This document shows, one piece after another, positions 1-19,565 of a DNA stretch of 64,000 nt. The notes beneath the pieces are model-generated. The model was not told the origin of the DNA, made no database searches, and saw only the letters and a program-made list of their open reading frames with translations. Position 1 is the stretch's first letter. Each line of letters begins with the position of its first letter. The DNA is from Fimicolochytrium jonesii (Eukaryota), in NCBI RefSeq assembly GCF_025526975.1, contig NW_026515677.1, positions 372,001-436,000 of the forward strand, in the 5' to 3' direction. The translations under genes and the position numbers were made by a program.

Positions 1-1977
1 CGCATTTAGCACCTAATGTCCAGGGAAACCCGTAAACCCATAAATCGTCGTTGATCGTGCCGGAAGGCGCGACGTTGATGAATAAAGCGATGCAAATGCG
101 GCGTCGGAAGGAGGTGCTTAGTGCGGTGGGTAGTGAGGTCGGATACTAAGCAACCTCCTCCTCGTCCATACACTCTAGAGGACTACGGTCCTCGTCCAGA
201 GCAGATTTTATCATTATTATATCCTGCCCAGCTTCGGCCGGCCATATAGACAATGAAAAGTGTTTGTGGTTAAAAGGACGGATGCATATATTATGTATCT
301 CGCTGCTCGCCAGTGGTTGTCGTTGAAATCACATTTCCACCAAGGACAACTATTAGAGCAAACTTCTTTAGGCGTCCTGATTTGGATCATGGTTTTTTGG
401 TCTCTCCTCTCCTTCAAGGAGGTAAATTTCCGATGGTCCTCAGTGAGCCCCTTAGGGAGATGTACTGTAAGCCCTGACAAGGATAAATAGCGAGGTTAGG
501 AGCTGGCTAGAGGGTAAGGCTCATAAATATTCGTTGGGCAACCGCCCCCGGCTTGAAGCGCGTTCTTGGGCACAAGTATCCCTCAACAGGGCCCTCAAAA
601 CGATCAGCTGGCTATATCCCCTGGATTCTACGTTCACATTTGAGAATCACACGAGGGGTATCGGCGAAAGGCATCAGCTGGGTGGTTCCCCTTAATTTTG
701 AGGTCACTGGGTCTCAAAAGCCAGTCAGCTTGGGTTTCCCAAGGATAATAATGTAGTTTAAATCGTTCCCCCTTTATCAACATCAAGGAAGAAGTTGGGC
801 TTATCTCACCGTAAAAAATGGGTAACACGTAAGCTTGACCTCCAAAGTTACGCGTGTTGGGCTGCAACGCATAGGCAGAAATCGTGGGCCCTAGATCCTT
901 CCCGGGTGCGGGTAGAACAGGACATCGTGCCCACATCCCCCTCTGAATCGTTTCTCGTCCGTCCTTGCCCTTCTCACTTCTATCGATCAATCGTATGGTA
1001 CGTTTTTCCGTGCGTCATCACACAACATAACCGACGCTCTTGTTCTCTGAAAGTTCATAGGGGACCACCATCTCGCCGCCATCTCCCATCGCTTTCCGAC
1101 CTGGTTCATAAGGTGACATTTCCCCACGATAGTGCATCTTCCCAGCGAAGGCGTCAGTAAGTGTTGGATTTTTGCATGACGTCCCTCCTTTTCAACGTCG
1201 CCGCCGCTTCTCCGTCGTCCGCCGCCATCTCCCACCACTCAACGCGCCTGCCGATGGTTGGACAACATCCTTCCACTAAGCAGCTTCCTGTAAGTGTCTC
1301 GCTATATGAATTGGACCTCACCATAACAGACGCGTTCCTTTCCTTTTTGACGCGCAACGGCCGTGTCATTCAGGCAAGCACAATTCCCAATCTGCGGTGA
1401 CCCCGAGCACGAATTCCAGCCGCACACTGAACACTCCCACTCTAGCGAAGTTGTAAGTTCGCGTGGCTCCTACGCCACGCGCCCGCGGGCAGTGGAAGGT
1501 CGAGGGTCCATCTTAGCCCCAGCTCCAGGGGCCCTAGGACGGCTGATTAGACGCAGTGGCGTGGCGGTACAGAACTGGAAGTGCGGAAGGGGCCTGTGTG
1601 CTGGAGAGGGTGGTCGGTTCTGGGGCCCGTCGTCCGCTCCCGCCGCCCTAAGTAACGTGCGGTACAATATTCATGCGCCTTAGGACATACCAACTTCCAG
1701 GGGCCAATTGTGAAAACATGGTATTCTCTTATACTGTATCTACGAGGTACATACAGTGAACTGTATTCAATGGAAGCGACAGATTCCGGAACATCCGTCA
1801 ATCATGACGACGGATAGGTGGAAAATCATATCTGGCGTATGAGGGTGATGTGATGAGCACTGATGGGGGAATCATTAGCAGCATGGATGGGGGGAGGAGG
1901 TTGAGGGTTGTTTGTTGGGTTTAGGGTAAGGATTGGTTGCAAACCATGTACATACAAGCCTTCTCTGTGTTGTGTAT

Positions 1978-2976
1978 TCACGCCCCCACCCGACGTCCAT
2001 GGCTTGCCAAACAATCTTCGAACCCATTTTCAAGTTCATATGCGATTTCTTTCAAAGGGGTGAACGGGGAGAGTGGTCCCACGACAAACAGAAATGGTTT
2101 AAGGCTATCATCCTTCTCCTCCGGGACGTCGGGATGGGTGAGTGCATACTGAACCCGTTCCGCCCATGCTTTCCTGCTCTGTGAGCTGCTGCCAGCGCCG
2201 CTTCCACCGCCGCTTCCACCAGCATTTCCACAATCTCCTCGCCCAGCACCACCGCCACGTTGGTCAGCATTAACACCACCTCCGGCAACAGCATCCGCTT
2301 CACCTCCGTCAGGCTCACTATCTTTCGAGTCTTCTTCTTGGTTGTCATCGTATCTAACATTCCTCCAGTATCGCCAATGATATCTCAATAGTTTCTTCTT
2401 TTCATCTGGGGCGATGGTGACAAAAATTTGACCTTGATCATCCTTCGGGTGGACAACCAGTGCTCGACCTGCGTTGTCACGAGACTGGCCTTTTTCAATT
2501 TTGACACTCTCAAAAACGACTTGGCACTTGACGGGGTGGGAGAAGTTGAGATATGACCTCTGACCCTCAAACAAACCGTCCGGCACGAGATGAATGCCTT
2601 CTGGGGGCTGATTCCTCAGACATGGTGCGTCCGCAACGGGGACGAACCGGTGGGCATAGACCAGGTGGGAGGATGCCACAAATACAGTCGCCACCTCATC
2701 CTCGGGATCGTATCGGTGTACCAAAATCGGGTGATACTTGGGGTCACGGAGACGGCGGTAGGGCGGGTTGGTCGGGTCGCCAGCTGAGAATGTTCGTTGA
2801 ACTTCAGGAGATGTTGGACTTTGGATACATGGAAGGTTTGTGGGAAACGACGATTCTGCTGGTGTCGCTTGGTTGATTTCGGCCGGAAAGACTATGTAGC
2901 CCAGATAGAACTGGTTCCGGTTCAAAGTGGTCCCCCGTCTTGTCGCCGCGCTCGCGGCATAGGTGGAGGCAGCCAT
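1978..2976 (-). CDS. Hypothetical intronless protein (332 aa from ATG 2976); N-terminal half has a PemK/MazF-like motif pattern, C-terminal half acidic/Gly-rich
   Basis: Open frame 1978..3072; first ATG at 2976 (MAASTYAAS). Motifs KYHPILV..VATVFVASS..RFVPV..RSYLNFSHPV..IAPDEKKKL. Fold call is by eye only. Confidence 0.55.
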   Translation of the reverse strand: MAASTYAASAATRRGTTLNRNQFYLGYIVFPAEINQATPAESSFPTNLPCIQSPTSPEVQRTFSAGDPTNPPYRRLRDPKYHPILVHRYDPEDEVATVFVASSHLVYAHRFVPVADAPCLRNQPPEGIHLVPDGLFEGQRSYLNFSHPVKCQVVFESVKIEKGQSRDNAGRALVVHPKDDQGQIFVTIAPDEKKKLLRYHWRYWRNVRYDDNQEEDSKDSEPDGGEADAVAGGGVNADQRGGGAGRGDCGNAGGSGGGSGAGSSSQSRKAWAERVQYALTHPDVPEEKDDSLKPFLFVVGPLSPFTPLKEIAYELENGFEDCLASHGRRVGA

Positions 2977-3046
2977 GACGCAGTTACTGTGTATGCGCTT
3001 TCCCGCAATCGTAATCAAGGCGAGGTTACCGTTCCCGCTCGAAGGT

Positions 3047-3462
3047 TCAGCGCTCACATACGTCTTCGGCAAGCGCGTCGCTCTCTCTCACTTTTTGCCT
3101 TCCGCGCGAAACCCTTTTTCACACAGACATCTCTTCTTGCAACCCCACGGCCTCTGCCGACAGGCCAACGGCCACCCAAGTATTGTAGTAGGATATGTGC
3201 ACCAGAGGCCACTCTTCAAAACTGTTTCATTACATTTTTTTTATCTTCTTTTAAAAACAGAGAAATGCCTACTTTAACTTGCTTCATCAACGTCAAAGAC
3301 AGAAGGCTCCTCGTCGCTTTCCTCTCCCGCAACGCCAGCCAGAGTCCGCTCTTGCACCTTGCTGTTGCGCCATTCCCAAAAGGAATGCAGTAAAAAGGAA
3401 GGCGGAGAAGGAACCAGAAACAGAGACGCTGCAATCGACGCGCGGGCGTATGTGAGCGCTGA
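3047..3462. mobile_element. Non-autonomous DNA transposon (MITE), 416 bp, 16-bp TIRs, 10-bp TSD
   Basis: Left TIR TCAGCGCTCACATACG (3047-3062) is the exact reverse complement of 3447-3462; identical flanking direct repeat GCTCGAAGGT at 3037-3046 and 3463-3472; no credible internal ORF. Confidence 0.85.
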
Positions 3463-3472
3463 GCTCGAAGGT

Positions 3473-3665
3473 CCTGAAGCCTTTGCTCCGTCTAGGCAGT
3501 CGAGTATACAAGTTGCCATCATCGGCGACGCCTCAGGCAGAGGTACAATGATGTGGATGGCAGATAACCACCACGGAAAATGGGATGGGGTGAAATCTAG
3601 ACTACCTACGGTTACGGGAGAATGCGTCTGGTCTGCGGCCATTGCCAAACACCACCGAACGCACA
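3473..3665 (-). ncRNA. Candidate Fanzor omegaRNA region (boundaries unknown)
   Basis: Immediately 3' of, and overlapping the end of, the Fanzor ORF, where Fanzor/TnpB guide RNAs are encoded; minus-strand hairpin GUGGUGG-UUAUCUG-CCAUCCAC (3574-3553) and a possible stem at 3663-3623. Confidence 0.4.
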
Positions 3666-6600
3666 ATCGAGAGGAAATTCTTGGTGCTCAGGACGTCCCG
3701 ATTGTGCACTCTCATCCGTAGTCGTAGTGGTCGTCGTCTTCCAGGAATCTCAAATGGCGTCCAGTCTTGGTTGATACATTCAGGGTTGGGGCAACCCACC
3801 AATCCATGGACGAATTCCATTCTCCCCTTTCTAGCTTGCCATGGCCGAGATGACAGCCGCTGTCGGATGTTTTTCTTCACACGGCCGTGGCAGTCGGGGC
3901 ACACGGACGACTTTCGATACTCATCCAGCAAGTAGCATGGAATGCTGTTTCTCGCAAAGAGTGTGCGGAATCTGTTCCATGATGAGTTAGCATATTATAG
4001 TACATAAAAAACCATGATGGTCACTCACCCTTTGGTCTTTGATGACTCCTGAAAGCGCATCGTTTTCCCAGCATCGCTCCAATCACCCAAGATGACCGAA
4101 AAATGCTTTCCATACCGGCGTCGCATGTTCTTAATGAGCTTGCTCTCAGACCTTTGCCGCAGTGAGAACGCCTTGAATCTGCGAGCGACATGAATCTCAT
4201 CCCGGTAAAACTCATCCAGGGCGGGATCTGGGATATAGATGGATGTCAGCCCATGGATTACTAAATTTGAAAATCACAATTGAAGTAGAACATCATACCC
4301 GCATGTACGTGATCCACAATGAACGCTGAGAACGCCTCGATGTTCATGCTCTTGTGCGATGGAATCTGTGATTCCATCTCAGCAACGCCGGCATTGATCT
4401 TCCGCTCTGTCATGTCTCTCCGAAAGTACCGCGACTTTGTCTCGACCGCCCGTTGATTGGATGTATATCTGATGAGGGGCGGTGTTTTGTGAGAATGTGA
4501 CAACGGATGGTGGGGACAGTGAAGGGGGGGGGGGGATGGTGGGGATGGGGACGAGGACAGGGTTGGCCTCGACACCGTCATGCAGGTCATCAACATGGGC
4601 CACGCGACGAGCGATATGACGCGCGACGGCGACAAGCAAACCAACCGCGGCCGCTCCCTCATTGGTCGCTCCCTCCGCGGCCGCTTCCCATCGACAGCTC
4701 CGTGCTCGTCCAACTCTATCAACGAACTCCTCGCCCAGATCCGCGACGGTGGCAAAATGGCTGTGGAAGCCGCCAACGCCGTCTGGACCGACTTCGTTGC
4801 CCGTGTCCGCAAACAGGGGAACCACCCCTTCCAAGTCAACGTCCGCAAACACCTCCGCACCATCTTCCGCAAAGTCGAGGGTTGGGGGGGGGGGGGGGGA
4901 TGGTGGGGACAGCAGGGCAGTAGTAATCTGAAACTTACCGAAATGGCCGCTCCTTCTTGTTGTCTCGACAGAATAGGAGGTCACGCTTGCCCGGATCAAT
5001 GCAGACGATGTTTGGAGCCTCCCTTAAGTCGTCAATGTGGTGCTCAAAATACAGCTGCTTGACTTCTTCCCGCATTTGGGCCTTGCTGCGCTTCCGGGCC
5101 CGATACCCATACTTGAGCCCTGGCTTCTTGAAGTGGATGGTAACGGAATACCCGTCGGTGCTAATTGACCCATCGAACTTGAGACCAAGCTTCTTTCGAT
5201 GTTTGAAGACCTTGTCCTACAATCCGTCATTCAGCGACGTAATCTGATTGAATCAAGCACAGAAGGGTACAGACTTAACTTACATTCACGTTGATAAACT
5301 GCCCCCACAGCTCCCGCTTGCGTTCATCAGTGGGTTTCCCCATGCGACGGCGGCTCAAGCCCAAGATATGAGTGGCTAGGATCTTCGTGTCGATCCGAAC
5401 AGACGACTGGATTCGAGATTTGCGCAGCGGGATAGCGGAAAACAGCCGCATTCCACGGCGCTCATAGAGGCGTGAGAGCTCACAATAGGCACCTGGTGAG
5501 GCAGGTGTGGACCATGATTAGACAAAAGAGGAAGCCGAGGGGGGGGGGGGCAAAGGGGGCGAGTGGTTACGTCGACGCTGTGGCGGTGGGCAAGAGCATC
5601 GGCCGTGCCCCGGGCCCGCTGTGCGCGCACTGGGGGCGTCGTCGAGGCGGGGGAGGAGGGGGCGAGAAGGGGGGGGGGGGTCGGGGGCCCGCAGGAGCCA
5701 AGCGTGCGGGCGCCCAGCGGCGACAGCGCAACGCGAACCACGTTGGCCGGGGTCCCGGCAGGCAGCCACTCGACCAGGTCGACATACCAAGGGAGGCACT
5801 GTCGGTCGCCTAGCAAGGACCCGCGCAAACGCCGCGCGAACTCCCAGTGCTGCTGTATGCCCACCGCCGCGAGATGTGGGCTTGAGCGTGTATGTTCGGC
5901 GCGCCATCGGCGATGGCAACAGCGCATCGCGAATCACGTCGGCCGGGGTCCCGGCTCGCTGCGCAGCACGCACGAGCTGGAGGGGGGGGGGGGGGGGAGA
6001 GTGGATAAATGTACAGGATGCAACTCACCTAAATATGGCATTGCGTCCACATCAAGACTGTATGCAAGCGGTTCATCCTGGGGAGGAAACAGAGCCCATA
6101 AGTCGTCGAGGAGAGTCCGCTCAAGTCGTGTGAGGCCGGCAAACTCCTCTTCGGTTGGGTACTCTTCAAATGTCGCGTACTTTCTGAATTGACGGACACG
6201 CCAATAATACTGTTGGCGCTGCGCTCGGCTGACTCCGGCTCTCCGAAGATGCAGTACGACTTGCTTCAAACCAAGCCTTTCATTGACGTAGCGCAGAAAC
6301 ATTTGCATGAAATGCTCTTGTACGTTAACTTTGAGGTTTGTGAAGATGCTCGTAGCCGTGTACGCCGCGGTCTGTTGGCTATTTCGCATGCGGATGGGGG
6401 CAAATCCGTGAACATTACGGTACTCTTGAACCCGTGGACGCAACTCTTGCGCTATGACCGGATTGCCGTTATAGCCCGGATTGTTTAGTAGCTCAAATAT
6501 CACACTACTGTGCTTGTCGGTGATGTCCGGGAAATCGTGTAGAGGATGATCAGCTGTGGTGGGGTGGGCAGATGTAGCAGTCAGGACATTGTTATGGGAA

Positions 6601-7173
6601 ATATTATGGGAAATATACAGTGTACCTCAAAAACTCACCAAGGTAGTACTTGAGGAAGAACGTGGTGTGGCGCGCAAGGACCTGAACATCGGCGATGAAC
6701 GTTGTCAGGCGCTCCCTTTGGACTTGATTGTGATTTTGGATGATTCGGTGAAGCGAAACCTTAGTGCTGGCATGTGTTTGCGGGCGGGGTCGTTGAGCTG
6801 GTGGTGGTGGCGGGGGTTCATACACCAGGGATCCCGGTGTGCTGGGAAAAGGGAAAGGGATGGGAGCTGGGAGGTTCAACGGACGCTGCAGACCCCTGTC
6901 CGCGGGTGAGAGCCCTCGCTGCTGTTGCTGTTGCCCGTCTTCATCGCCGGAGCTCTCGCTAACCATGTCTGCAATTGCTTGGGGCAAGTGGCGCTGGACA
7001 GAAGGTGGGAAATCGAATCGCGGGGGTTGCATTGGTGTCTGCACAGCGGTTGGCGGATTTATGGGCAGCCGCGGGGTAACCGGAGTAACCTTCCTCCTCT
7101 TCCGCCGTGGTGTGGTTGCTCCCGTAAAGAAGCCACCCCACCGGTGCCCCTGGAGCGCCTGGTGTGATGACAT
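3602..7173 (-). CDS. Fanzor1 (eukaryotic TnpB/Cas12-related RNA-guided DNA endonuclease), 7 exons, 761 aa, frame intact
   Basis: Manually spliced exons 7173-6639, 6553-6029, 5492-5284, 5216-4939, 4468-4299, 4227-4029, 3971-3602 (2286 nt, all GT-AG, phases consistent, no internal stop). Motifs: FSAIPLRKS..VRIDT, FDGSISTDGYSV, RuvC-I CIDPGKRDLL, RYTSNQRAVET, ILGDWS, LLDEYRKSSVCPDC, HGLVGCPNPEC, RuvC-III HNRDVLSTKN, RRPDAFSR. Confidence 0.92.
4520..4912. other. GC-rich insert in Fanzor intron 4, bounded by G12/G16 tracts and a 15-bp direct repeat
   Basis: GGATGGTGGGGACAG at 4505-4519 and 4898-4912; removing the insert leaves a 77-nt intron like the others (57-85 nt); insert reads as a coding-like frame on the plus strand. 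Confidence 0.7.
5551..5997. other. GC-rich insert in Fanzor intron 2, bounded by G12/G16 tracts
   Basis: G12 at 5539-5550, G12 at 5669-5680, G16 at 5982-5997; internal 37-bp direct repeat 5723-5759 / 5919-5955 (3 mismatches); removal leaves an ~89-nt intron. Confidence 0.65.
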
Positions 7174-7434
7174 GATGGCCGTGCTGTGCCTTAAGTTCAG
7201 CCGAGACAGGTGTTGCAGGTGATCGCCTTGATAGCTGTGTGTCAAAGAACTCAGTGTTGTGGTAATGAAGCTGAGAACGGTGAGGAATTGCGGTTGTTAC
7301 CTGGTGGTGGTCGGCGAGTACACATCTGCTCGCAATTGCGCTGGGTTCCGGTAAGGCCGAGCGTGAAGGCTGTAAGCAGTGTACAGTAAGGAGCGTGAGG
7401 AGCGCGAAGAGTAGAGTGGGGATCCCCACGTTCT

Positions 7435-7450
7435 TTTACACGCGTGTAAA
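7435..7450. promoter_or_regulatory. Perfect 16-bp palindrome TTTACACGCGTGTAAA containing an MCB-like ACGCGT core
   Basis: Seen directly, ~260 bp upstream of the Fanzor ATG; function is inference. Confidence 0.35.
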
Positions 7451-7707
7451 GGATGTGGGTGTTGTGGAACTCGTTACTTTATTCCCCTTTCACACACACC
7501 ACTCGTTTTATAGACATTCGATCGGACGGTCTGCCCACACACACAACCAGCTCTCTATCTGCAGAGAAGAAAAAGGGGGGGTACGGTAGCTATAAAAAGG
7601 AAGCTGTGGCTGAAACTGGCTGTTTACAACACTCCCTCTCAGACTGCAGATCGAATTCAGTCCGCAGTCGCCGTCGCAGTCGCTCTGCATGATCCCATAG
7701 AACGTTC

Positions 7708-7878
7708 CGCTCTCAACTTCCGCAATCGCTTGAGTCCAGATCGGAGTAGGAGCCGGACTCGCGATTCGCTCTTCAAGTCACGATCGCTTGAGTCCAGATC
7801 GGAGTAGGAGCCGGGCTCGCGATTCGTTACGCCCTGAACTTTACGCCATCAACTTCCGCCATCGCTTCCGCCATCGCT
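7708..7878 (+). repeat. Left array of ~58-bp tandem units (2 copies) plus extra CTTCCGCCATCGCT motifs
   Basis: 7725-7768 repeated at 7783-7826 (1 mismatch); core CGCTCTCAACTTCCGCAATCGCTT at 7708-7731; related motifs at 7851-7878. Confidence 0.85.
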
Positions 7879-8258
7879 GATCTCGACGCTTCCAGTGCTG
7901 AGCACGACCGCCGCTTGCGGGAGGTCGACCGGCATGGGATGTGTTGTCGCTTCGCCGTCGTAGTCGTGAATGCCTCGGTAAAAACCTCTCCCAGTCGCAA
8001 AAACCTCCGTGAGGAAAAATAGATCCTGGGAGTAGGAAAAGAGCGCATCGCTGTATCAGGCAACATCGGCCTTTCGGCGCAACCCTAGAGCGTGAACAAA
8101 CTTCCAGTGTTTGTTTTCATCTAGGGATTTGGTAAATATATCCGCAACGTTGTCGTGCGTATTGATCTGAGTGATTTCTAGGGCAGCGGCGGCGGCGGCG
8201 GCGGCTTCTCTGGCGTTTGGCGTAGTAGCTGCGTTAACTGTGTTGGCTCTCGCTCAAT

Positions 8259-8744
8259 GTGGACTTCCCAACGGCGCTAGTCCCGTCAACCATCCACACA
8301 CCATCAACATTGATGGCAATCTCCACTACACCCACGGCGGCGACAACAACAACAACAATAAACACGGTTCCGTCAACTGCACAACCATTGAACCATTCAA
8401 CGGCGGGGCCAGAAGAGGAGAACCCACCGGTCCATCACATGAGCAGGGGAATTCACACGGTGCAAGACTTATGGCGGGAATGGACATACGGACTCGGAGG
8501 TGGGCCACCAATTGAGGTGTTGGAGAGGAAGTGGGGTGCACGCTGGCGGAAAGGGAACGAGCAGAGGTTTTTCAACCGGCGGAAGGTCATTATTGACTTT
8601 GTGAAGAGATGTGCTGATAAACGGGAAGGAGGTATATGTCCGGGCAACATTGACGTAGTGGTGGGCCAGCTAGAAGAGCTCAGGGTGAGGCAGGAACGGT
8701 CCTTAGATTGGATCTCAAAGAACATCAGAACAATAACATTGTAA
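8259..8744 (+). pseudogene. GCR1_C DNA-binding domain fragment, typical of the C-terminus of fungal Crypton tyrosine-recombinase transposons and relatives; 5'-truncated
   Basis: HMSRGIHTVQDLWREWTYGLGGGPPIEVLERKWGARWRKGNEQRFFNRRKVIIDFV..SLDWISK; no recognisable recombinase domain upstream. Confidence 0.75.
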
Positions 8745-8827
8745 ATTGGTGAGAGCGGAAACGATTTCTGTATCATAGACCTATTGCTATTGCTATGGTG
8801 TCCGGCGGCGAAGCAACTATGACAGCG

Positions 8828-8966
8828 AAGCGATTGGGAAGTTGAGAGAGCGTACCGCGAGACTGCCCCTATTCCGGGCTGCCCCAAGCGATTGCGGGAG
8901 TCGAGAGCGTACTGCGAGACTGCCCCTATTCCAGGCTGCCCCAAGCGATTGCGGAAGTCGAGAGCG
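8828..8966 (-). repeat. Right array of ~57-bp tandem units (~2.4 copies), inverted relative to the 7708-7826 array
   Basis: Units start at 8828, 8886, 8943; 8943-8966 matches the reverse complement of 7708-7731 at 23/24 positions; the rest of the unit also aligns. Confidence 0.85.
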
Positions 8967-9179
8967 AGTATATATCCCGCCAGATGGTAGCAAATCAGGT
9001 AGCAAATCCCCGGGGAACCTTATGAAGTTGACGCGTGCACATCAATCTACGCGGCCCACGGTGAACCAACGCTCTTCCATCCATCCATCCATCCGTCCAT
9101 TCGCAAAGCAAGCACAGCTATATATATAGGCATCCATCCATTCATCCATCCATCCGTTATCGAAATCGAAATAGCAAAT

Positions 9180-10819
9180 ATGTCTGAAGAACACCTGGTG
9201 CGTTTTCTCCAACTCCGTGTTAATATTTTCGGCAGGGGGCATAGAGACGCGATGATGCGGGATGGCATTGCGCGATGATGAGACTAGCGTGCGAGCAACG
9301 AGTGGAACGTAAAACAAGCAGGCTTGGAGGATGGGACCCATCTACCCTAGCTCGGGGTGTCATAGGACCGTGGGAATTTCGAGCCTGGGAACGCGTTAAA
9401 GACAGATGGTCCAACAGCGAGATTGGAAGCAATCACAGCCTATAAAGTGACTCCCGGCAGCGACGTGGACTTCGGGGACGCTGTGGAAGACAGAAAACAA
9501 AGGAGGGAGTTGCGGGACTAGTGAACAGCGTCTGCTATGGGGACGAAATCTTGACTAGTGGGAACAAGGAATTCATTTTTAACGATCGCCCGTATGTCGA
9601 ATTCATAGGAAGGAAATACCGGTGCCGAGGAGGAGGTTGCCCCCTCCGTGGACGTGCATTTTGAGCCCGTCATGAAGCTGGAGCAGCTCGATGAGATTAA
9701 GACTGGGGAGGAAGATGATGAGGCGCTCTTCAAGATGTGAGTTTGGACATCCCCTCGTCAGACTGATGAGTTGCAGGACGGTTGGAAGTTGGGAAATGCA
9801 AACGAAGCAGAATTGGCAGCGGCGGTATTGGAGTTATGCGAGACGAGGGCTTCACCGTCGGGTTTGCATCGGGGCATCGCCTATCCAGAATGTGACATAG
9901 GATGCTTGCCCAATACGTGAGCACGAAGGGACTGGGAGTGAATGGGACCGGGGGAGAGACCTCGCAGCAATGGGACAGAGCACATGCAAAAGTCAACTCG
10001 ATAAGAGCACGATATTGATGGACAATGAATTCGCAAAATCTAGGCGCTCGAAACTCTTCCGATTCGACAAGGGCCTGAACGAGTGGAAGGAGCGTGGAAC
10101 CGGTGACGTGAAGTTGCTGAAGCACAAGGAGAGCCAGAAGATCCGCATCCTGATGCGTCGTGAGAAGACCCACAAGATCTGTGCCAACCACTACAGTGAG
10201 TTTTAACAGTCTGATCATCTCGCTTTGAATTCATCAGAACTGATCTGTCTCTTTTAGTAACATCCGAGATGGAGCTGAAGCCCAACGTCGGCTCCGACAG
10301 GTCCTGGGTGTGGAGCACCCTGGCGGATGTTTCGGAGGGAGACGCCACTCACGAGCTCCTTGCCATCCGTTTTGCGAACTCTGAGAGTGAGTTGTGGGAA
10401 TGATTCTTGAAAGATTGAGGGACTGTCCCTTAACCAATCGAATTTTCCGAAAAGATGCGAACAAGTTCAAGGAGGCTTTCGAGGATGCGCAGAAACACAA
10501 CGCCGGCGTGGGTTCGAAGAGTGCTCCTGCCCACGAGGAGCTCAAGCATGAGGAGCCCAAGCATGAGGAGCCTGCGCCCGCTAAGCACGAGGAGCCCAAG
10601 CATGAGGAGCCTGCGCCCGCTAAGCACGAGGAGCCCGTGAAACACGAGGCACCAGTTGAGGAGCCCAAGCCCGCGCACGAGGAACCGAAGGAGCCTTCTG
10701 CACCTGCTACAGCGGAGCCAGCAGCGCACGAGCCGCACAAGGAAATCGTTGCTGAGGGTGCTCACACTGAGACACCGAAGGCGGAGGGTGCTACGGAGGA
10801 GCACACAAAGGCGGAATAG
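9180..10819 (+). CDS. YRB1: Ran-binding protein 1 (RanBP1), ~5 exons, with KHEEP-repeat C-terminal tail
   Basis: [57 protein letters not shown]|..[23 protein letters not shown]; first exon MSEEHL at 9180 inferred from splice sites. Confidence 0.93.
10544..10695 (+). repeat. Coding tandem repeat ([13 protein letters not shown] x2 plus degenerate copies)
   Basis: AAGCA(T/C)GAGGAGCC units visible in the last YRB1 exon. Confidence 0.85.
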
Positions 10820-17417: not shown

Positions 17418-19565
17418 TTAATTCCTCAAAGAGTCCTTCGAACTCTTCAACCTTAAGAGCTTGCCAAACTTCTTCCCCAGACTTCCTCCCTCCCTCGGCG
17501 GGTCCGGTCGAAACGGCGAGCTCGAGTCATCCCACGTATCCGAGCTCCCGCCCCTCGTCGGGCGTGCGCTCTCGTTGCTTCTGCGGCCTTTGAAGGTGTG
17601 GCGGAAGTCGAGGCAGTTGGGTTCGGTGGAGTCGCGCGGGGGTGGGTAGGAAGGGGAGCTGGGGTGGTGCAGGTCTTCGTCTTCTGCTAGGGGGGTGAGA
17701 TGTTGGGGTGGGCGGCGCGGTTGGTGGCGTTGGTCGCGGAAGGCGGAGCCGTGAATGCGGAGGGTGGGTGGGTGTCGCATATTTGCGGGGCCGAGGTCGC
17801 TGTCTTCGGGGCTGTTGAGTTCGGTGTCGGAGTTGTCTGAGGGGGCGTATTCTGGTGTGATGAAGGCGGCGTTGTCCATGCGGTAGAGCCCCGTGGGGTC
17901 GGTTGGGGAGGTCTGTTGCTGGGTGTGGCGGTAAGTGGGGCGGTGCACGGAGGACAGGGCGGGGCGAGAGCGGCCGGTGGAGGAGGAGGAGCTGCCGCCT
18001 TTGTCGTGGTCGTCGTCGTCGTTGGAGGAGGAGTAGCGGTTGTAGTTTCGCTCTGGGCGTGGGTCTGTGTACTCGTATTCGCCTTCATCGTCGTCCAATG
18101 GCTCATCGCTTTCTCCCTCTTCTTCCTCCTCCTCTTCTTCCTCTTCTGAGTTTCCATCGAGCGCAGCGTTCAACGCGCGCCAGATCTCTTTCGTCGTGGC
18201 TTCTCTGCTTTCTGTATTATCCAGCCGTCCGCAAGCCTCCTCTAACGCGAGTCGCAACCTATCTTTCACGTCCTCGCGCCGTATGGTGCTTTCGTCAAAG
18301 CTCACTTTCTTAGTGAGACTCCCTGAATGCCCTGTCGAATGCTGGTTACCACGTCCGTGATGGTTGCCACTGCGACGGTTTTGCTGCTGTGGTTGCTTCT
18401 TGCGTGATCTACTTGGGTGTGATGGTGCGGGCATACTCGCCCCGCCCGCACCGCCACTGCTGCTATTGTTGCTATGCTGTTCCATATGTTTCAGCAATTC
18501 CAGCGACCCACGCACGATAGTGTCCGTCCGCTGCGACGCCCGATGTAACGGCACTTCGCCAATAGCCCCGCCCAGCGCGCCAGTGACCGAGTGCACGATG
18601 CGTTGCACTTTTCTTTCTGCGGCTGCCAGAGCCGCCTCTAGAGCCAACCGTTTGGCTTCCCATTCTGCTTCCCGCTCTGCCATGACGTAGAAAAACGCCT
18701 CCGAGGCCAACATCCGCACCGCTTCGTCCCGCATCGATAACTTGGATGAGGACGTGTTGGACGAGTCGGGAGAGTCTCCTTTCCCTTTTGCTCGTCTCCG
18801 CTTCTCCTGGCCTCGTGCGGCCAGCGTCACCGGTAATCTCCCCGCCCGCCGCCTAATCAACAGTCGAAAAGCGTCCCAGTCCCGCACATCTGCCAAAAAC
18901 GCCGATAACGCCATAGTGTTGCCGGCCAGCCTGGTTGCCATATGCCCCGTCACATCCTGCTCTGGGTCTTTCGCCGCCGCTTCTGTAAACTCTTCGCCAA
19001 AGACACACCAGACGAATTCAGCGAAGCTGAGCTCTTCGGGTGATACGTCGTCCCAGAACGCTTTGAGGGTCGTCAGCGCTTCCCTCGTTTTGTCTGCCGA
19101 CTCGGCGATATCTGCTGCGTCGTCGCCTACAGCCCACTCTACTCGTCGGTCCCCTTCGTACCCTGGCAGAGCCCCTCGTTTCGGCAGGGAGATGGTTATC
19201 TGCAGATAGTAGAACTTTTTCCGTCGTTTGGCAGGTTTCGGGGATGCTGTTGCTGTGGCTGATCGAAGAGCGGCAATGTTGCTGTTGACAGCTGACAATG
19301 GTGTTGACTGCGAGGACGACTCCTCTCCCGTCGTGCGAGGTGCCTCTTCCCTCGTTGGCTGCTGCTGTGAATGAGCGGGCGCATTATCTGGTTCTGCTGC
19401 CGACGCTGCCAGTGGTGAGCGGGGTGCATTCTCGCCGACGCCATTTGCGACTGCGCCGTCACGCAATGAAGGGAGATAACCTTCAACGTCTAAGCCCGAG
19501 TCCTCCTTTCCTGGGCCGGTCGCTGATGCCAAGGATATTTTGGAGTCTCGTTCGGTTTCTGCCAT
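17418..19565 (-). CDS. Hypothetical 715-aa protein, largely low-complexity
   Basis: Long ATG-initiated single ORF; no recognised domain. Confidence 0.7.
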   Translation of the reverse strand: MAETERDSKISLASATGPGKEDSGLDVEGYLPSLRDGAVANGVGENAPRSPLAASAAEPDNAPAHSQQQPTREEAPRTTGEESSSQSTPLSAVNSNIAALRSATATASPKPAKRRKKFYYLQITISLPKRGALPGYEGDRRVEWAVGDDAADIAESADKTREALTTLKAFWDDVSPEELSFAEFVWCVFGEEFTEAAAKDPEQDVTGHMATRLAGNTMALSAFLADVRDWDAFRLLIRRRAGRLPVTLAARGQEKRRRAKGKGDSPDSSNTSSSKLSMRDEAVRMLASEAFFYVMAEREAEWEAKRLALEAALAAAERKVQRIVHSVTGALGGAIGEVPLHRASQRTDTIVRGSLELLKHMEQHSNNSSSGGAGGASMPAPSHPSRSRKKQPQQQNRRSGNHHGRGNQHSTGHSGSLTKKVSFDESTIRREDVKDRLRLALEEACGRLDNTESREATTKEIWRALNAALDGNSEEEEEEEEEEGESDEPLDDDEGEYEYTDPRPERNYNRYSSSNDDDDHDKGGSSSSSTGRSRPALSSVHRPTYRHTQQQTSPTDPTGLYRMDNAAFITPEYAPSDNSDTELNSPEDSDLGPANMRHPPTLRIHGSAFRDQRHQPRRPPQHLTPLAEDEDLHHPSSPSYPPPRDSTEPNCLDFRHTFKGRRSNESARPTRGGSSDTWDDSSSPFRPDPPREGGSLGKKFGKLLRLKSSKDSLRN

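What the first reader, a model, noticed from the sequence alone, without database searches (positions are those of the whole stretch)
3602..7173. Intact six-intron Fanzor1 RNA-guided nuclease hidden by splicing
Seen: seven GT-AG exons splice into one stop-free 761-aa frame carrying RuvC-I Asp (IDPG, codon 4997-4995), the Fanzor-type repositioned Glu (DEY, 3922-3920), RuvC-III Asp (NRD, 3697-3695) and a CxxC..CxxxxC zinc finger. A ~135-aa P/Q-rich N-terminus includes an NLS-like PRRKRRK. Established: Fanzors are eukaryotic TnpB descendants that cut DNA using a guide RNA, shown for Spizellomyces punctatus Fz1. Inference: this is a potentially active, heavily intronised ortholog with its own TAM and guide. 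No TIRs or intact transposase are visible around it.
Basis: partly seen in the sequence, partly recalled or inferred. Interest (0 to 1): 0.95.

Follow-up and report, generated by a model that had tools for sequence, protein, structure and literature searches.

The report
Six-intron Fanzor copy, likely crippled
This is a whole, seven-exon gene for a Fanzor1, a known family of RNA-guided DNA cutters, and one of dozens of copies in a chytrid fungus; a likely guide RNA follows it, but two changes at conserved residues suggest that this copy probably cuts poorly or not at all.

Summary
The anatomy is right. Seven GT-AG exons give a stop-free 761-aa frame with every motif at the stated codons. The product is identical to a public 'uncharacterized' Fimicolochytrium jonesii model. 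It aligns end to end with SpuFz1 (E 4.6e-149, 45% identity; model Z 38.7, rmsd 2.8). (1) It is a repeat: 56 other models from that species, 45 covering the RuvC-II Glu. (2) A SpuFz1-like guide-RNA first stem-loop starts about 25 nt after the stop. (3) Activity is doubtful: Thr three residues after the catalytic Glu is Lys here (Thr in 146 of 152 outside homologues, Lys in none), and the REC-loop Arg that anchors the TAM is Gly (13 of 15 family models). Intron-rich Fanzors with NLSs are published. What is new is a six-intron family whose close relative SpuFz1 has none. Splicing, RNA and cutting are untested; no RNA run was listed. The scan noted an intron-containing Fanzor relic before, on other DNA. 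New member of a known kind; interest 0.33.

The parts
6639..7173 (-). Exon 1: ATG, NLS-like PRRKRRK (aa 22-28, 7110-7090), disordered P/Q-rich extension, start of the WED/REC core
   Evidence: extension shared by at least 7 paralogue models
6554..6638 (-). Intron 1, 85 nt, phase 1
   Evidence: only open-frame GT/AG pair within 30 nt
6029..6553 (-). Exon 2: REC domain; Gly205 (6476-6474) in the register of SpuFz1 Arg96; Gln238/Gln239/Ala242 = SpuFz1 Q129/Q130/N133
5493..6028 (-). Intron 2, 536 nt, 70% GC, poly-C tracts near both ends, internal 48-nt direct repeat
   Evidence: a related intron sequence is translated in mis-spliced paralogue P0017
5284..5492 (-). Exon 3
5217..5283 (-). Intron 3, 67 nt, phase 0
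4939..5216 (-). Exon 4: WED, Tyr459 (= SpuFz1 Y345), RuvC-I Asp497 (4997-4995)
4469..4938 (-). Intron 4, 470 nt, 63% GC, middle bounded by a perfect 22-nt C-rich direct repeat (4888-4909, 4524-4545)
   Evidence: 3' part shared with paralogues P0023 and P0056
4299..4468 (-). Exon 5
4228..4298 (-). Intron 5, 71 nt, phase 1
   Evidence: ends shared with P0002, P0030, P0059
4029..4227 (-). Exon 6: RuvC, start of the lid
3972..4028 (-). Intron 6, 57 nt, phase 2, with in-frame stop
   Evidence: end shared with P0029
3602..3971 (-). Exon 7: repositioned Glu656 (3922-3920), private Lys659 (3913-3911), CCCC zinc finger, RuvC-III Asp731 (3697-3695), stop TAG
3553..3581 (-). Predicted omegaRNA 5' end and first stem-loop (SL1), in register with SpuFz1 omegaRNAs
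   Evidence: same hairpin after relative L003; inferred, no RNA data
3507..3552 (-). Possible second stem and right end (TA at scaffold positions 74-75)
   Evidence: (z -1.15, weak); boundary inferred from SpuFz1 spacing only
3492..3506 (-). Possible 15-nt guide (flanking DNA)
   Evidence: inferred; no match with under 3 mismatches elsewhere in the window
7235..7300 (-). Possible seventh intron, in the 5' UTR (66 nt, GT-AG)
   Evidence: sequence only
7460..8181 (-). 5'-truncated copia-like fragment: RNase H end (8181-8056), purine tract (7640-7632), 172-nt TG...CA LTR (7631-7460) with TATA box, ending 286 nt before the ATG; neighbour, probably not part of the Fanzor element
   Evidence: class assigned from recalled copia anatomy; Pfam and Atlas gave no name

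Best explanation
This is an intact seven-exon Fanzor1 gene, one of at least 46 copies in a chytrid genome, likely the cargo of a DNA transposon without its own transposase, and this copy is probably a weak or dead nuclease. Shown: the open spliced frame, the SpuFz1 fold and catalytic triad, the copy number, and introns shared between copies (so the copies spread as DNA, not through mRNA). Inferred from SpuFz1: the spliced mRNA gives a nuclear protein; a short RNA from the 3' flank (SL1 from about 3581, a second stem, then about 15 nt of flanking DNA as guide) loads it; the complex recognises a TAM, likely TA-containing and different from CATA, and cuts the empty site. Inferred from TnpB: that cut would favour copying the element back. 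In this copy Thr659Lys beside the metal-binding Glu, plus a shortened REC loop with no basic residue, are predicted to impair cutting and DNA anchoring. The family appears to be decaying like methylated repeats.
For: Identity and fold. Contacts against SpuFz1 (P0060 numbering matches PMC10432273 section 10): catalytic D/E/D kept; N385 is Gly, as in 66 of 160 outside homologues; 9 of 13 heteroduplex contacts and 12 of 25 omegaRNA contacts identical. Copies: 56 other F. jonesii models, 45 spanning Glu656, most 85-95% identical. Intron ends shared between copies. SL1: motif once in 64 kb (expected 0.07; 7 of 100 shuffles had a match), hairpin z -3.94, 0 of 200 shuffles, same hairpin behind 46%-identical relative L003. 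SL1 is the conserved part of Fz1 omegaRNAs (PMC11423790 passages). Impairment: position 659 is Thr in 146 and Ser in 4 of 152 outside rows, Lys in 0; Thr in 43, Met in 2 of 45 paralogues; it is the only one of 59 conserved columns where this copy departs from both its family and the outside set. REC loop: Arg/Lys in 116 of 126 outside rows with residues there; Gly in 13 of 15 family models; GtFz1 R85A abolishes cutting (PMC11423790 section 6). Decay: 104 of 248 transition-type differences in paralogues are CpG-type against 15% expected.
Against: No test of Thr659 was found (no T544 mention in PMC11423790 main text or PMC10432273 supplements), so its effect is inferred from conservation. Lys659 is one base and could be an assembly error. 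Equating Gly205 with the essential GtFz1 Arg rests on alignment register in a loop that is 6-7 residues shorter here. The family amplified with Gly205 in most copies, which may mean Gly is tolerated. This copy is whole, its CDS is not CpG-depleted (o/e 0.99) and it keeps conserved Asp444 where 24 of 28 paralogues have Asn, so it is among the best-preserved copies. Element ends, target-site duplication and the mobilising enzyme were not found. A looser SL1 motif hit 3 places in the window (expected 0.49). The biological role of Fanzors is stated as unknown (PMC10432273 section 11).
Confidence: 0.62

Rival explanations
1. One reading: this copy is an active RNA-guided nuclease with its own TAM. 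Lys659 is tolerated or is a sequencing error, and the short REC loop binds DNA by other contacts.
For: Whole frame, D/E/D and CCCC intact, confident SpuFz1-like model (pLDDT 77, Z 38.7); SL1 intact; no CpG depletion. Gly205 is shared by 13 of 15 models, so the family kept spreading with it. N133-to-Ala and R96-to-Gly would change the TAM.
Against: Lys at a column that is 150 of 152 Thr/Ser, as conserved as the catalytic Glu (149 of 153); Arg-loop loss. The one intron-containing Fanzor tested in PMC10530073 (CrFNuc-1) formed RNP but did not cut (passage).
Confidence: 0.25
2. A silent, recent pseudogene: the frame is open only because the copy is young, it is not transcribed or spliced, and the copia-like insertion removed its left end and promoter.
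For: No left inverted repeat in the window; truncated copia-like fragment directly upstream; paralogues show CpG-type decay and most models are fragments.
Against: Splice signals are intact at all six introns, including the two enlarged ones; the annotators' model matches exactly; 286 nt of leader with a possible extra intron remain.
Confidence: 0.1
3. A domesticated host gene: an LTR-driven, non-cutting RNA-guided DNA- or RNA-binding protein kept by selection.
For: Intron-rich, long disordered N-terminus, LTR with TATA box upstream, whole frame with a change beside the active site.
Against: Introns and N-terminus are family-wide; the copy nests among the other repeats in the quick tree; all three catalytic acids are kept; no ortholog at this locus could be examined.
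Confidence: 0.03

Closest known systems
SpuFz1 of the Spu-1 element, Spizellomyces punctatus (PDB 8GKH, 9CEU-9CEZ; PMC10432273; PMC3627910)
   Same: 45% identity over 618 columns; same fold over aa 131-759; D/E/D triad, CCCC finger, basic N-terminal NLS-like motif; SL1-like hairpin shortly after the stop; dozens of copies per genome; no transposase in the element.
   Different: SpuFz1 is one ORF in a 2.1-kb element with 30-33-nt inverted repeats; this gene has six introns over 3.6 kb, about 115 extra N-terminal residues and no detectable inverted repeat. R96 is Gly, N133 is Ala, T544 is Lys. The scaffold 3' of SL1 does not resemble SpuFz1's. Activity untested.
Gaertneriomyces sp. hypothetical protein HDU85_005947 (P0058)
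   Same: Nearest outside relative: 52-53% identity, sister to the whole family in the quick tree.
   Different: 637 aa with no N-terminal extension; keeps the loop Arg and the Thr; its intron content could not be seen.
Intron-containing Fanzor1 of Chlamydomonas reinhardtii (CRe-1/2/3, CrFNuc-1; PMC3627910, PMC10530073)
   Same: Multi-exon (5-10 exons), multi-copy Fanzor1 with a 3' non-coding RNA.
   Different: Carried by Helitron2 elements in a green alga; splicing supported by ESTs; RNP formed but no cleavage was detected. Not compared by sequence here.
PpFz1 (Parasitella parasitica) and GtFz1 (Guillardia theta), PMC11423790
   Same: Same fold (Z 35.0 and 23.9); Gly after the RuvC-I DP as in PpFz1.
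   Different: 19-27% identity; PpFz1 has the FRI insertion and GtFz1 an Asn in RuvC-III, neither present here.

Membership tests
Fanzor1 | TnpB-derived bilobed WED/REC/RuvC/TNB protein of about 600-700 aa, closest to Fz1 structures | tested here: met
   phmmer E 4.6e-149; Foldseek top seven hits all Fz1, E 2.6e-53; Z 38.7, rmsd 2.8 over 581 aa, against 11.7 for the next family
Fanzor1 | Rearranged RuvC triad: Asp, repositioned Glu just before the zinc finger, Asp | tested here: met
   D497/E656/D731 align to SpuFz1 D383/E541/D606
Fanzor1 | CCCC zinc finger in the TNB/NUC domain | tested here: met
   C663, C666, C699, C704
Fanzor1 | Eukaryotic host gene features (introns, NLS) | tested here: met
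   six GT-AG introns and a basic motif at aa 22-28; NLS function itself untested
Fanzor1 | omegaRNA encoded 3' of the ORF with conserved SL1 | tested here: inconclusive
   motif and hairpin present and significant; the 18 nucleotides named in the SpuFz1 text match 10 of 18, not discriminating; no RNA data
Fanzor1 | Conserved REC-loop Arg anchoring the TAM duplex | tested here: not met
   Gly205; no Arg or Lys in aa 193-216; a functional residue, not a criterion of descent
Fanzor1 | Guide- and TAM-dependent dsDNA cleavage | not testable with these tools
   needs RNP assay; T659K argues against
Spu-1-like non-autonomous TIR element | Multiple near-identical copies spread as DNA | tested here: met
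   45 other models span Glu656; intron ends shared
Spu-1-like non-autonomous TIR element | About 30-nt terminal inverted repeats with TA duplication | tested here: inconclusive
   no inverted copy of the putative right end in 64 kb, but that end is itself inferred, the left side carries a copia-like insertion, and DNA of other copies was not available
CryptonF-associated Fanzor | Tyrosine recombinase plus GCR1_C in the same element | tested here: inconclusive
   GCR1_C ORF at 8238-8744 on the other strand (E 3.7e-22); no recombinase found next to it; no paralogue model is fused to such sequence

The most novel reading that the evidence does not exclude
A Fanzor1 lineage gained six spliceosomal introns and a long disordered N-terminus after splitting from intronless SpuFz1-like relatives, lost the TAM-anchoring Arg loop, and still multiplied to 45 or more copies. 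Either its Thr659 members are active nucleases that read DNA with a new, possibly relaxed TAM mechanism, or the element spreads without needing Fanzor to cut. Arg205 and Gly205 copies in one genome would then be a natural test of what Fanzor does for its transposon.
Probability: 0.15. Interest if true: 0.62.

Novelty: new member of a known kind. Interest (0 to 1): 0.33.

Why it matters
As a tool it adds one more SpuFz1-like scaffold with a probably different TAM, but this copy is a poor first pick; P0047 (100% of the core covered, Thr kept) or Arg-bearing P0044 are better. For biology, the role of Fanzor cutting in transposon spread is stated as open (PMC10432273 section 11). A family of 45 or more copies that splits into Arg-loop and Gly-loop forms, with flanks that could be read from a public assembly, makes that question more testable. 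It is also a clean case of intron gain inside a mobile element: close relatives read straight through all six positions.

Tried and rejected
No genome was held, so ends, ghosts and dN/dS could not be derived from other copies. No RNA holder was listed; this is not evidence either way. Pfam named neither the exons, P0046 nor SpuFz1-like P0060; the precomputed PF26935 label has no name in this library. Rfam gave only one chance hit in 2500-9500. The single-sequence fold failed (pLDDT 34.5). A supposed ghost near 19130-19210 (11- and 12-nt matches, E 0.9-1.6) was rejected as chance. The sliding search for a left inverted repeat gave only background scores. Scoring the 18 SpuFz1 RNA positions named in the paper gave 10 of 18, reached by 807 of 127,850 registers and tied five ways near the stop: uninformative. 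MAFFT misaligned the short RNA candidates, so no covariance model was built. Whole-scaffold folds were unremarkable (z -0.2 to -1.6). The 332-aa ORF at 2976-1978 has only one paralogue (56%), so it is rejected as a partner gene of the element. The tyrosine-recombinase fusion in P0074 shares only a 17-19 aa tail with window 211-155 and is treated as an annotation join. Atlas: no named family for the RNase H-like peptide, no hit for the antisense frame in intron 4. The careful tree did not finish; only the quick tree (25 rows: 14 of 57 family models and 11 outside proteins) is cited. A C2H2-finger reading of the upstream uORF plus the N-terminus was dropped: wrong frame and spacing (by eye).
Full report
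Observation. Joining minus-strand exons 7173-6639, 6553-6029, 5492-5284, 5216-4939, 4468-4299, 4227-4029 and 3971-3602 gives 761 codons and one stop. All six introns are GT-AG, and retaining any one truncates the protein. Only introns 1 and 4 have a unique open-frame GT/AG pair within 30 nt, so the joins were checked by homology. The product is identical to public model P0046 (KAI8821362.1, 'uncharacterized protein', Fimicolochytrium jonesii). Other models of that species read the same residues across junctions 1-6 in 4 of 6, 6 of 9, 15 of 19, 24 of 26, 36 of 38 and 42 of 44 spanning cases; these come from one annotation and are not RNA evidence. The SpuFz1 alignment has no gap at any junction codon. 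No sequencing run was listed, so splicing is untested.

Identity. Against solved structures the protein hits SpuFz1 (E 4.6e-149, aa 129-759), PpFz1 (2.4e-37) and GtFz1 (2e-4) and nothing else at E 0.01. The alignment-based model (pLDDT 77; aa 1-129 disordered) matches Fz1 structures first (Foldseek E 2.6e-53; Z 38.7, rmsd 2.8 over 581 residues, next family Z 11.7). Identity is 45% to SpuFz1-numbered P0060 and 53% to a Gaertneriomyces protein, the sister of the family in a quick tree of 25 rows.

It is a repeat. Searches returned 56 other F. jonesii models; three short unrelated cluster members (P0020, P0033, P0037) were dropped. Of the 48 examined, 45 span Glu656, mostly at 85-95% identity. 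Most are fragments; only P0047 covers the whole core. Mis-spliced models translate stretches matching this copy's introns 2, 4, 5 and 6, so introns are family-wide and the copies spread as DNA. Differences in paralogues are enriched for CpG-type transitions (104 of 248 against 15% expected, p 6e-24; direction assumed from this copy), as for methylated repeats, while this CDS is not CpG-depleted.

Introns. SpuFz1 is a single ORF (PMC10432273 section 7; PMC3627910 passages). Among 27 related loci (some are duplicates), those spanning junctions 1-6 read straight through in 4 of 4, 17 of 17, 25 of 25, 24 of 24, 18 of 20 and 22 of 23 cases. Two relatives (L001, L002) have a GT-AG gap near aa 274, where this gene has none. 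Intron gain in this lineage is therefore the simplest reading; some contigs could be cDNA, and the Gaertneriomyces gene could not be seen. Density is 2.6 introns per kb of CDS, against up to about 9.6 reported for Fanzors, with about 60% predicted to carry an NLS (PMC10530073 passages). Chlamydomonas Fanzor1 genes have 5-10 exons (PMC3627910 passage). Introns 2 and 4 are long and GC-rich (70%, 63%) with poly-C borders; the other four are 57-85 nt and 35-44% GC.

Guide RNA. SpuFz1 omegaRNAs (supplementary file 5, part 1 of 2, of PMC10432273) open with a U-rich leader, CCG, a five-base stem arm and a GUURUC turn. That motif occurs once in 64 kb, at 3578-3563, 23 nt after the stop (expected 0.07; 7 of 100 shuffles had one); a looser form hits three places (expected 0.49), the other two in unrelated coding DNA. 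The hairpin is stable (z -3.94, 0 of 200 shuffles), and relative L003 has the same hairpin, bulge included, just 3' of its matched region (z -1.68); it is the only one of 27 loci with the motif. Five more distant loci carry a variant at the same place. SL1 is the conserved part of Fz1 omegaRNAs and the rest varies (PMC11423790 passages). A second stem is weak (z -1.15), a TA falls at positions 74-75 as in SpuFz1, and the 18-position test was uninformative. The right end and guide (3506-3492) are therefore only inferred.

Surroundings. No inverted copy of the putative right end lies in the window. Upstream are 286 nt of leader with a possible UTR intron, then a 172-nt TG...CA LTR, purine tract and RNase H-like end (copia class from recalled anatomy), then an opposite-strand GCR1_C ORF, a domain of CryptonF elements (PMC3212892 passages). 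Gypsy insertions in 11 Spu-1 loci are a precedent for nesting (PMC10432273 section 7). Downstream, a 416-nt element with 16-nt inverted ends and a 10-nt duplication begins at 3462, and the next ORF has only one paralogue, which bounds the element. The mobilising enzyme is unidentified.

Activity. The triad, the finger, Tyr459 and most heteroduplex contacts are kept. Two changes argue against cutting. Position 659, three residues after Glu656, is Thr in 146 and Ser in 4 of 152 outside rows (162 aligned, 10 gapped) and Thr or Met in all 45 paralogues, but Lys here. Of 59 columns at least 75% conserved, this copy departs at five, and four of those are family-wide. No mutant data for this Thr were found. 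Second, SpuFz1 Arg96 aligns to Gly205 in a shortened loop with no basic residue; 2 of 15 family models have Arg there and fall outside the main group in the quick tree (support 88). The conserved REC-loop Arg is essential in GtFz1 (R85A, PMC11423790 section 6); equating it with SpuFz1 R96 is my inference from position. Asn133-to-Ala also points to a TAM other than CATA. In favour of activity, the copy is whole, young-looking and keeps Asp444 (150 of 159 outside rows) where most paralogues do not.

Mechanism. Shown: frame, fold, residues, copy number. Inferred from SpuFz1: splicing, nuclear import, an RNA from the 3' end carrying flanking DNA as guide, TAM-dependent cutting of the empty site. 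Inferred from TnpB: repair from the occupied allele keeps the element; PMC10432273 section 11 calls the role unknown. I put about 0.6 on a weak or dead copy, 0.25 on an active one, 0.1 on a silent one.

Literature and novelty. Seen: PMC10432273 (abstract, sections 7, 10, 11, 33, supplement 5 part 1, term searches of 8 readable supplements; one PDF was unreadable and one too large); PMC3627910, PMC10530073, PMC3212892, PMC12247965 (passages; 2 supplements of PMC10530073 term-searched); PMC11423790 (sections 6, 7, 10 and passages; supplements not seen, and they may hold mutant data on these residues). Searches for Fanzor with Fimicolochytrium or jonesii found one paper, with unrelated mentions; neither supplement set names the species, though tables may use accessions only. 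Subscription papers were not searchable. The family looks undescribed; the kind is well known. Verdict: new member of a known kind, interest 0.33.

Noticed in passing
window 3047-3462: 416-nt element with perfect 16-nt terminal inverted repeats and a perfect 10-nt flanking duplication (3472-3463 and 3046-3037): looks like a Mutator-type MITE (class from recalled 9-11 nt duplications), 45 nt beyond the putative Fanzor right end.
   Followed up: partly
window 8238-8744 (+): ORF with a GCR1_C domain (E 3.7e-22), the C-terminal domain of CryptonF proteins; probably a Crypton remnant abutting the truncated copia-like fragment.
   Followed up: partly
window 7708-7821 and 8828-8966: Related 57-58 nt tandem units occur in inverted orientation on both sides of the copia/GCR1_C junction (73-96% identity); unexplained.
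   Followed up: no
window 7416-7450: Two adjacent perfect palindromes (16 and 14 nt) right after the LTR end; candidates for a hairpin-type left end of the Fanzor element.
   Followed up: no
window 4523-5062 (+): Antisense open frame of 179 codons through intron 4 whose middle reads like captured coding sequence; no Pfam or Atlas hit. Other copies differ in the middle of this intron.
   Followed up: partly
window 1978-2976 (-): 332-aa intronless ORF with no Pfam hit and one 56% paralogue in the same species.
   Followed up: partly
window 155-211 (-): Short peptide shared (84-94%) with the tail of the tyrosine-recombinase part of model P0074 (Phage_integrase E 5.6e-4); possibly the end of a recombinase-type element.
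   Followed up: partly
L001:645-690 and L002:388-560: Two 42-46% relatives have a GT-AG gap at the same codon (near aa 274 of this protein), a position without an intron here: independent intron gain in the clade.
   Followed up: partly
L008:1102-5069: A distant Fanzor1 (31%) flanked by 35-nt inverted repeats, 86% complementary, with about 1.9 kb of room upstream of the Fanzor match.
   Followed up: no
L009:1456, L012:2577, L013:2863, L018:2134, L022:2132: A conserved 3' non-coding block with an SL1-like hairpin in a distant Fanzor1 family, a second candidate omegaRNA family.
   Followed up: partly
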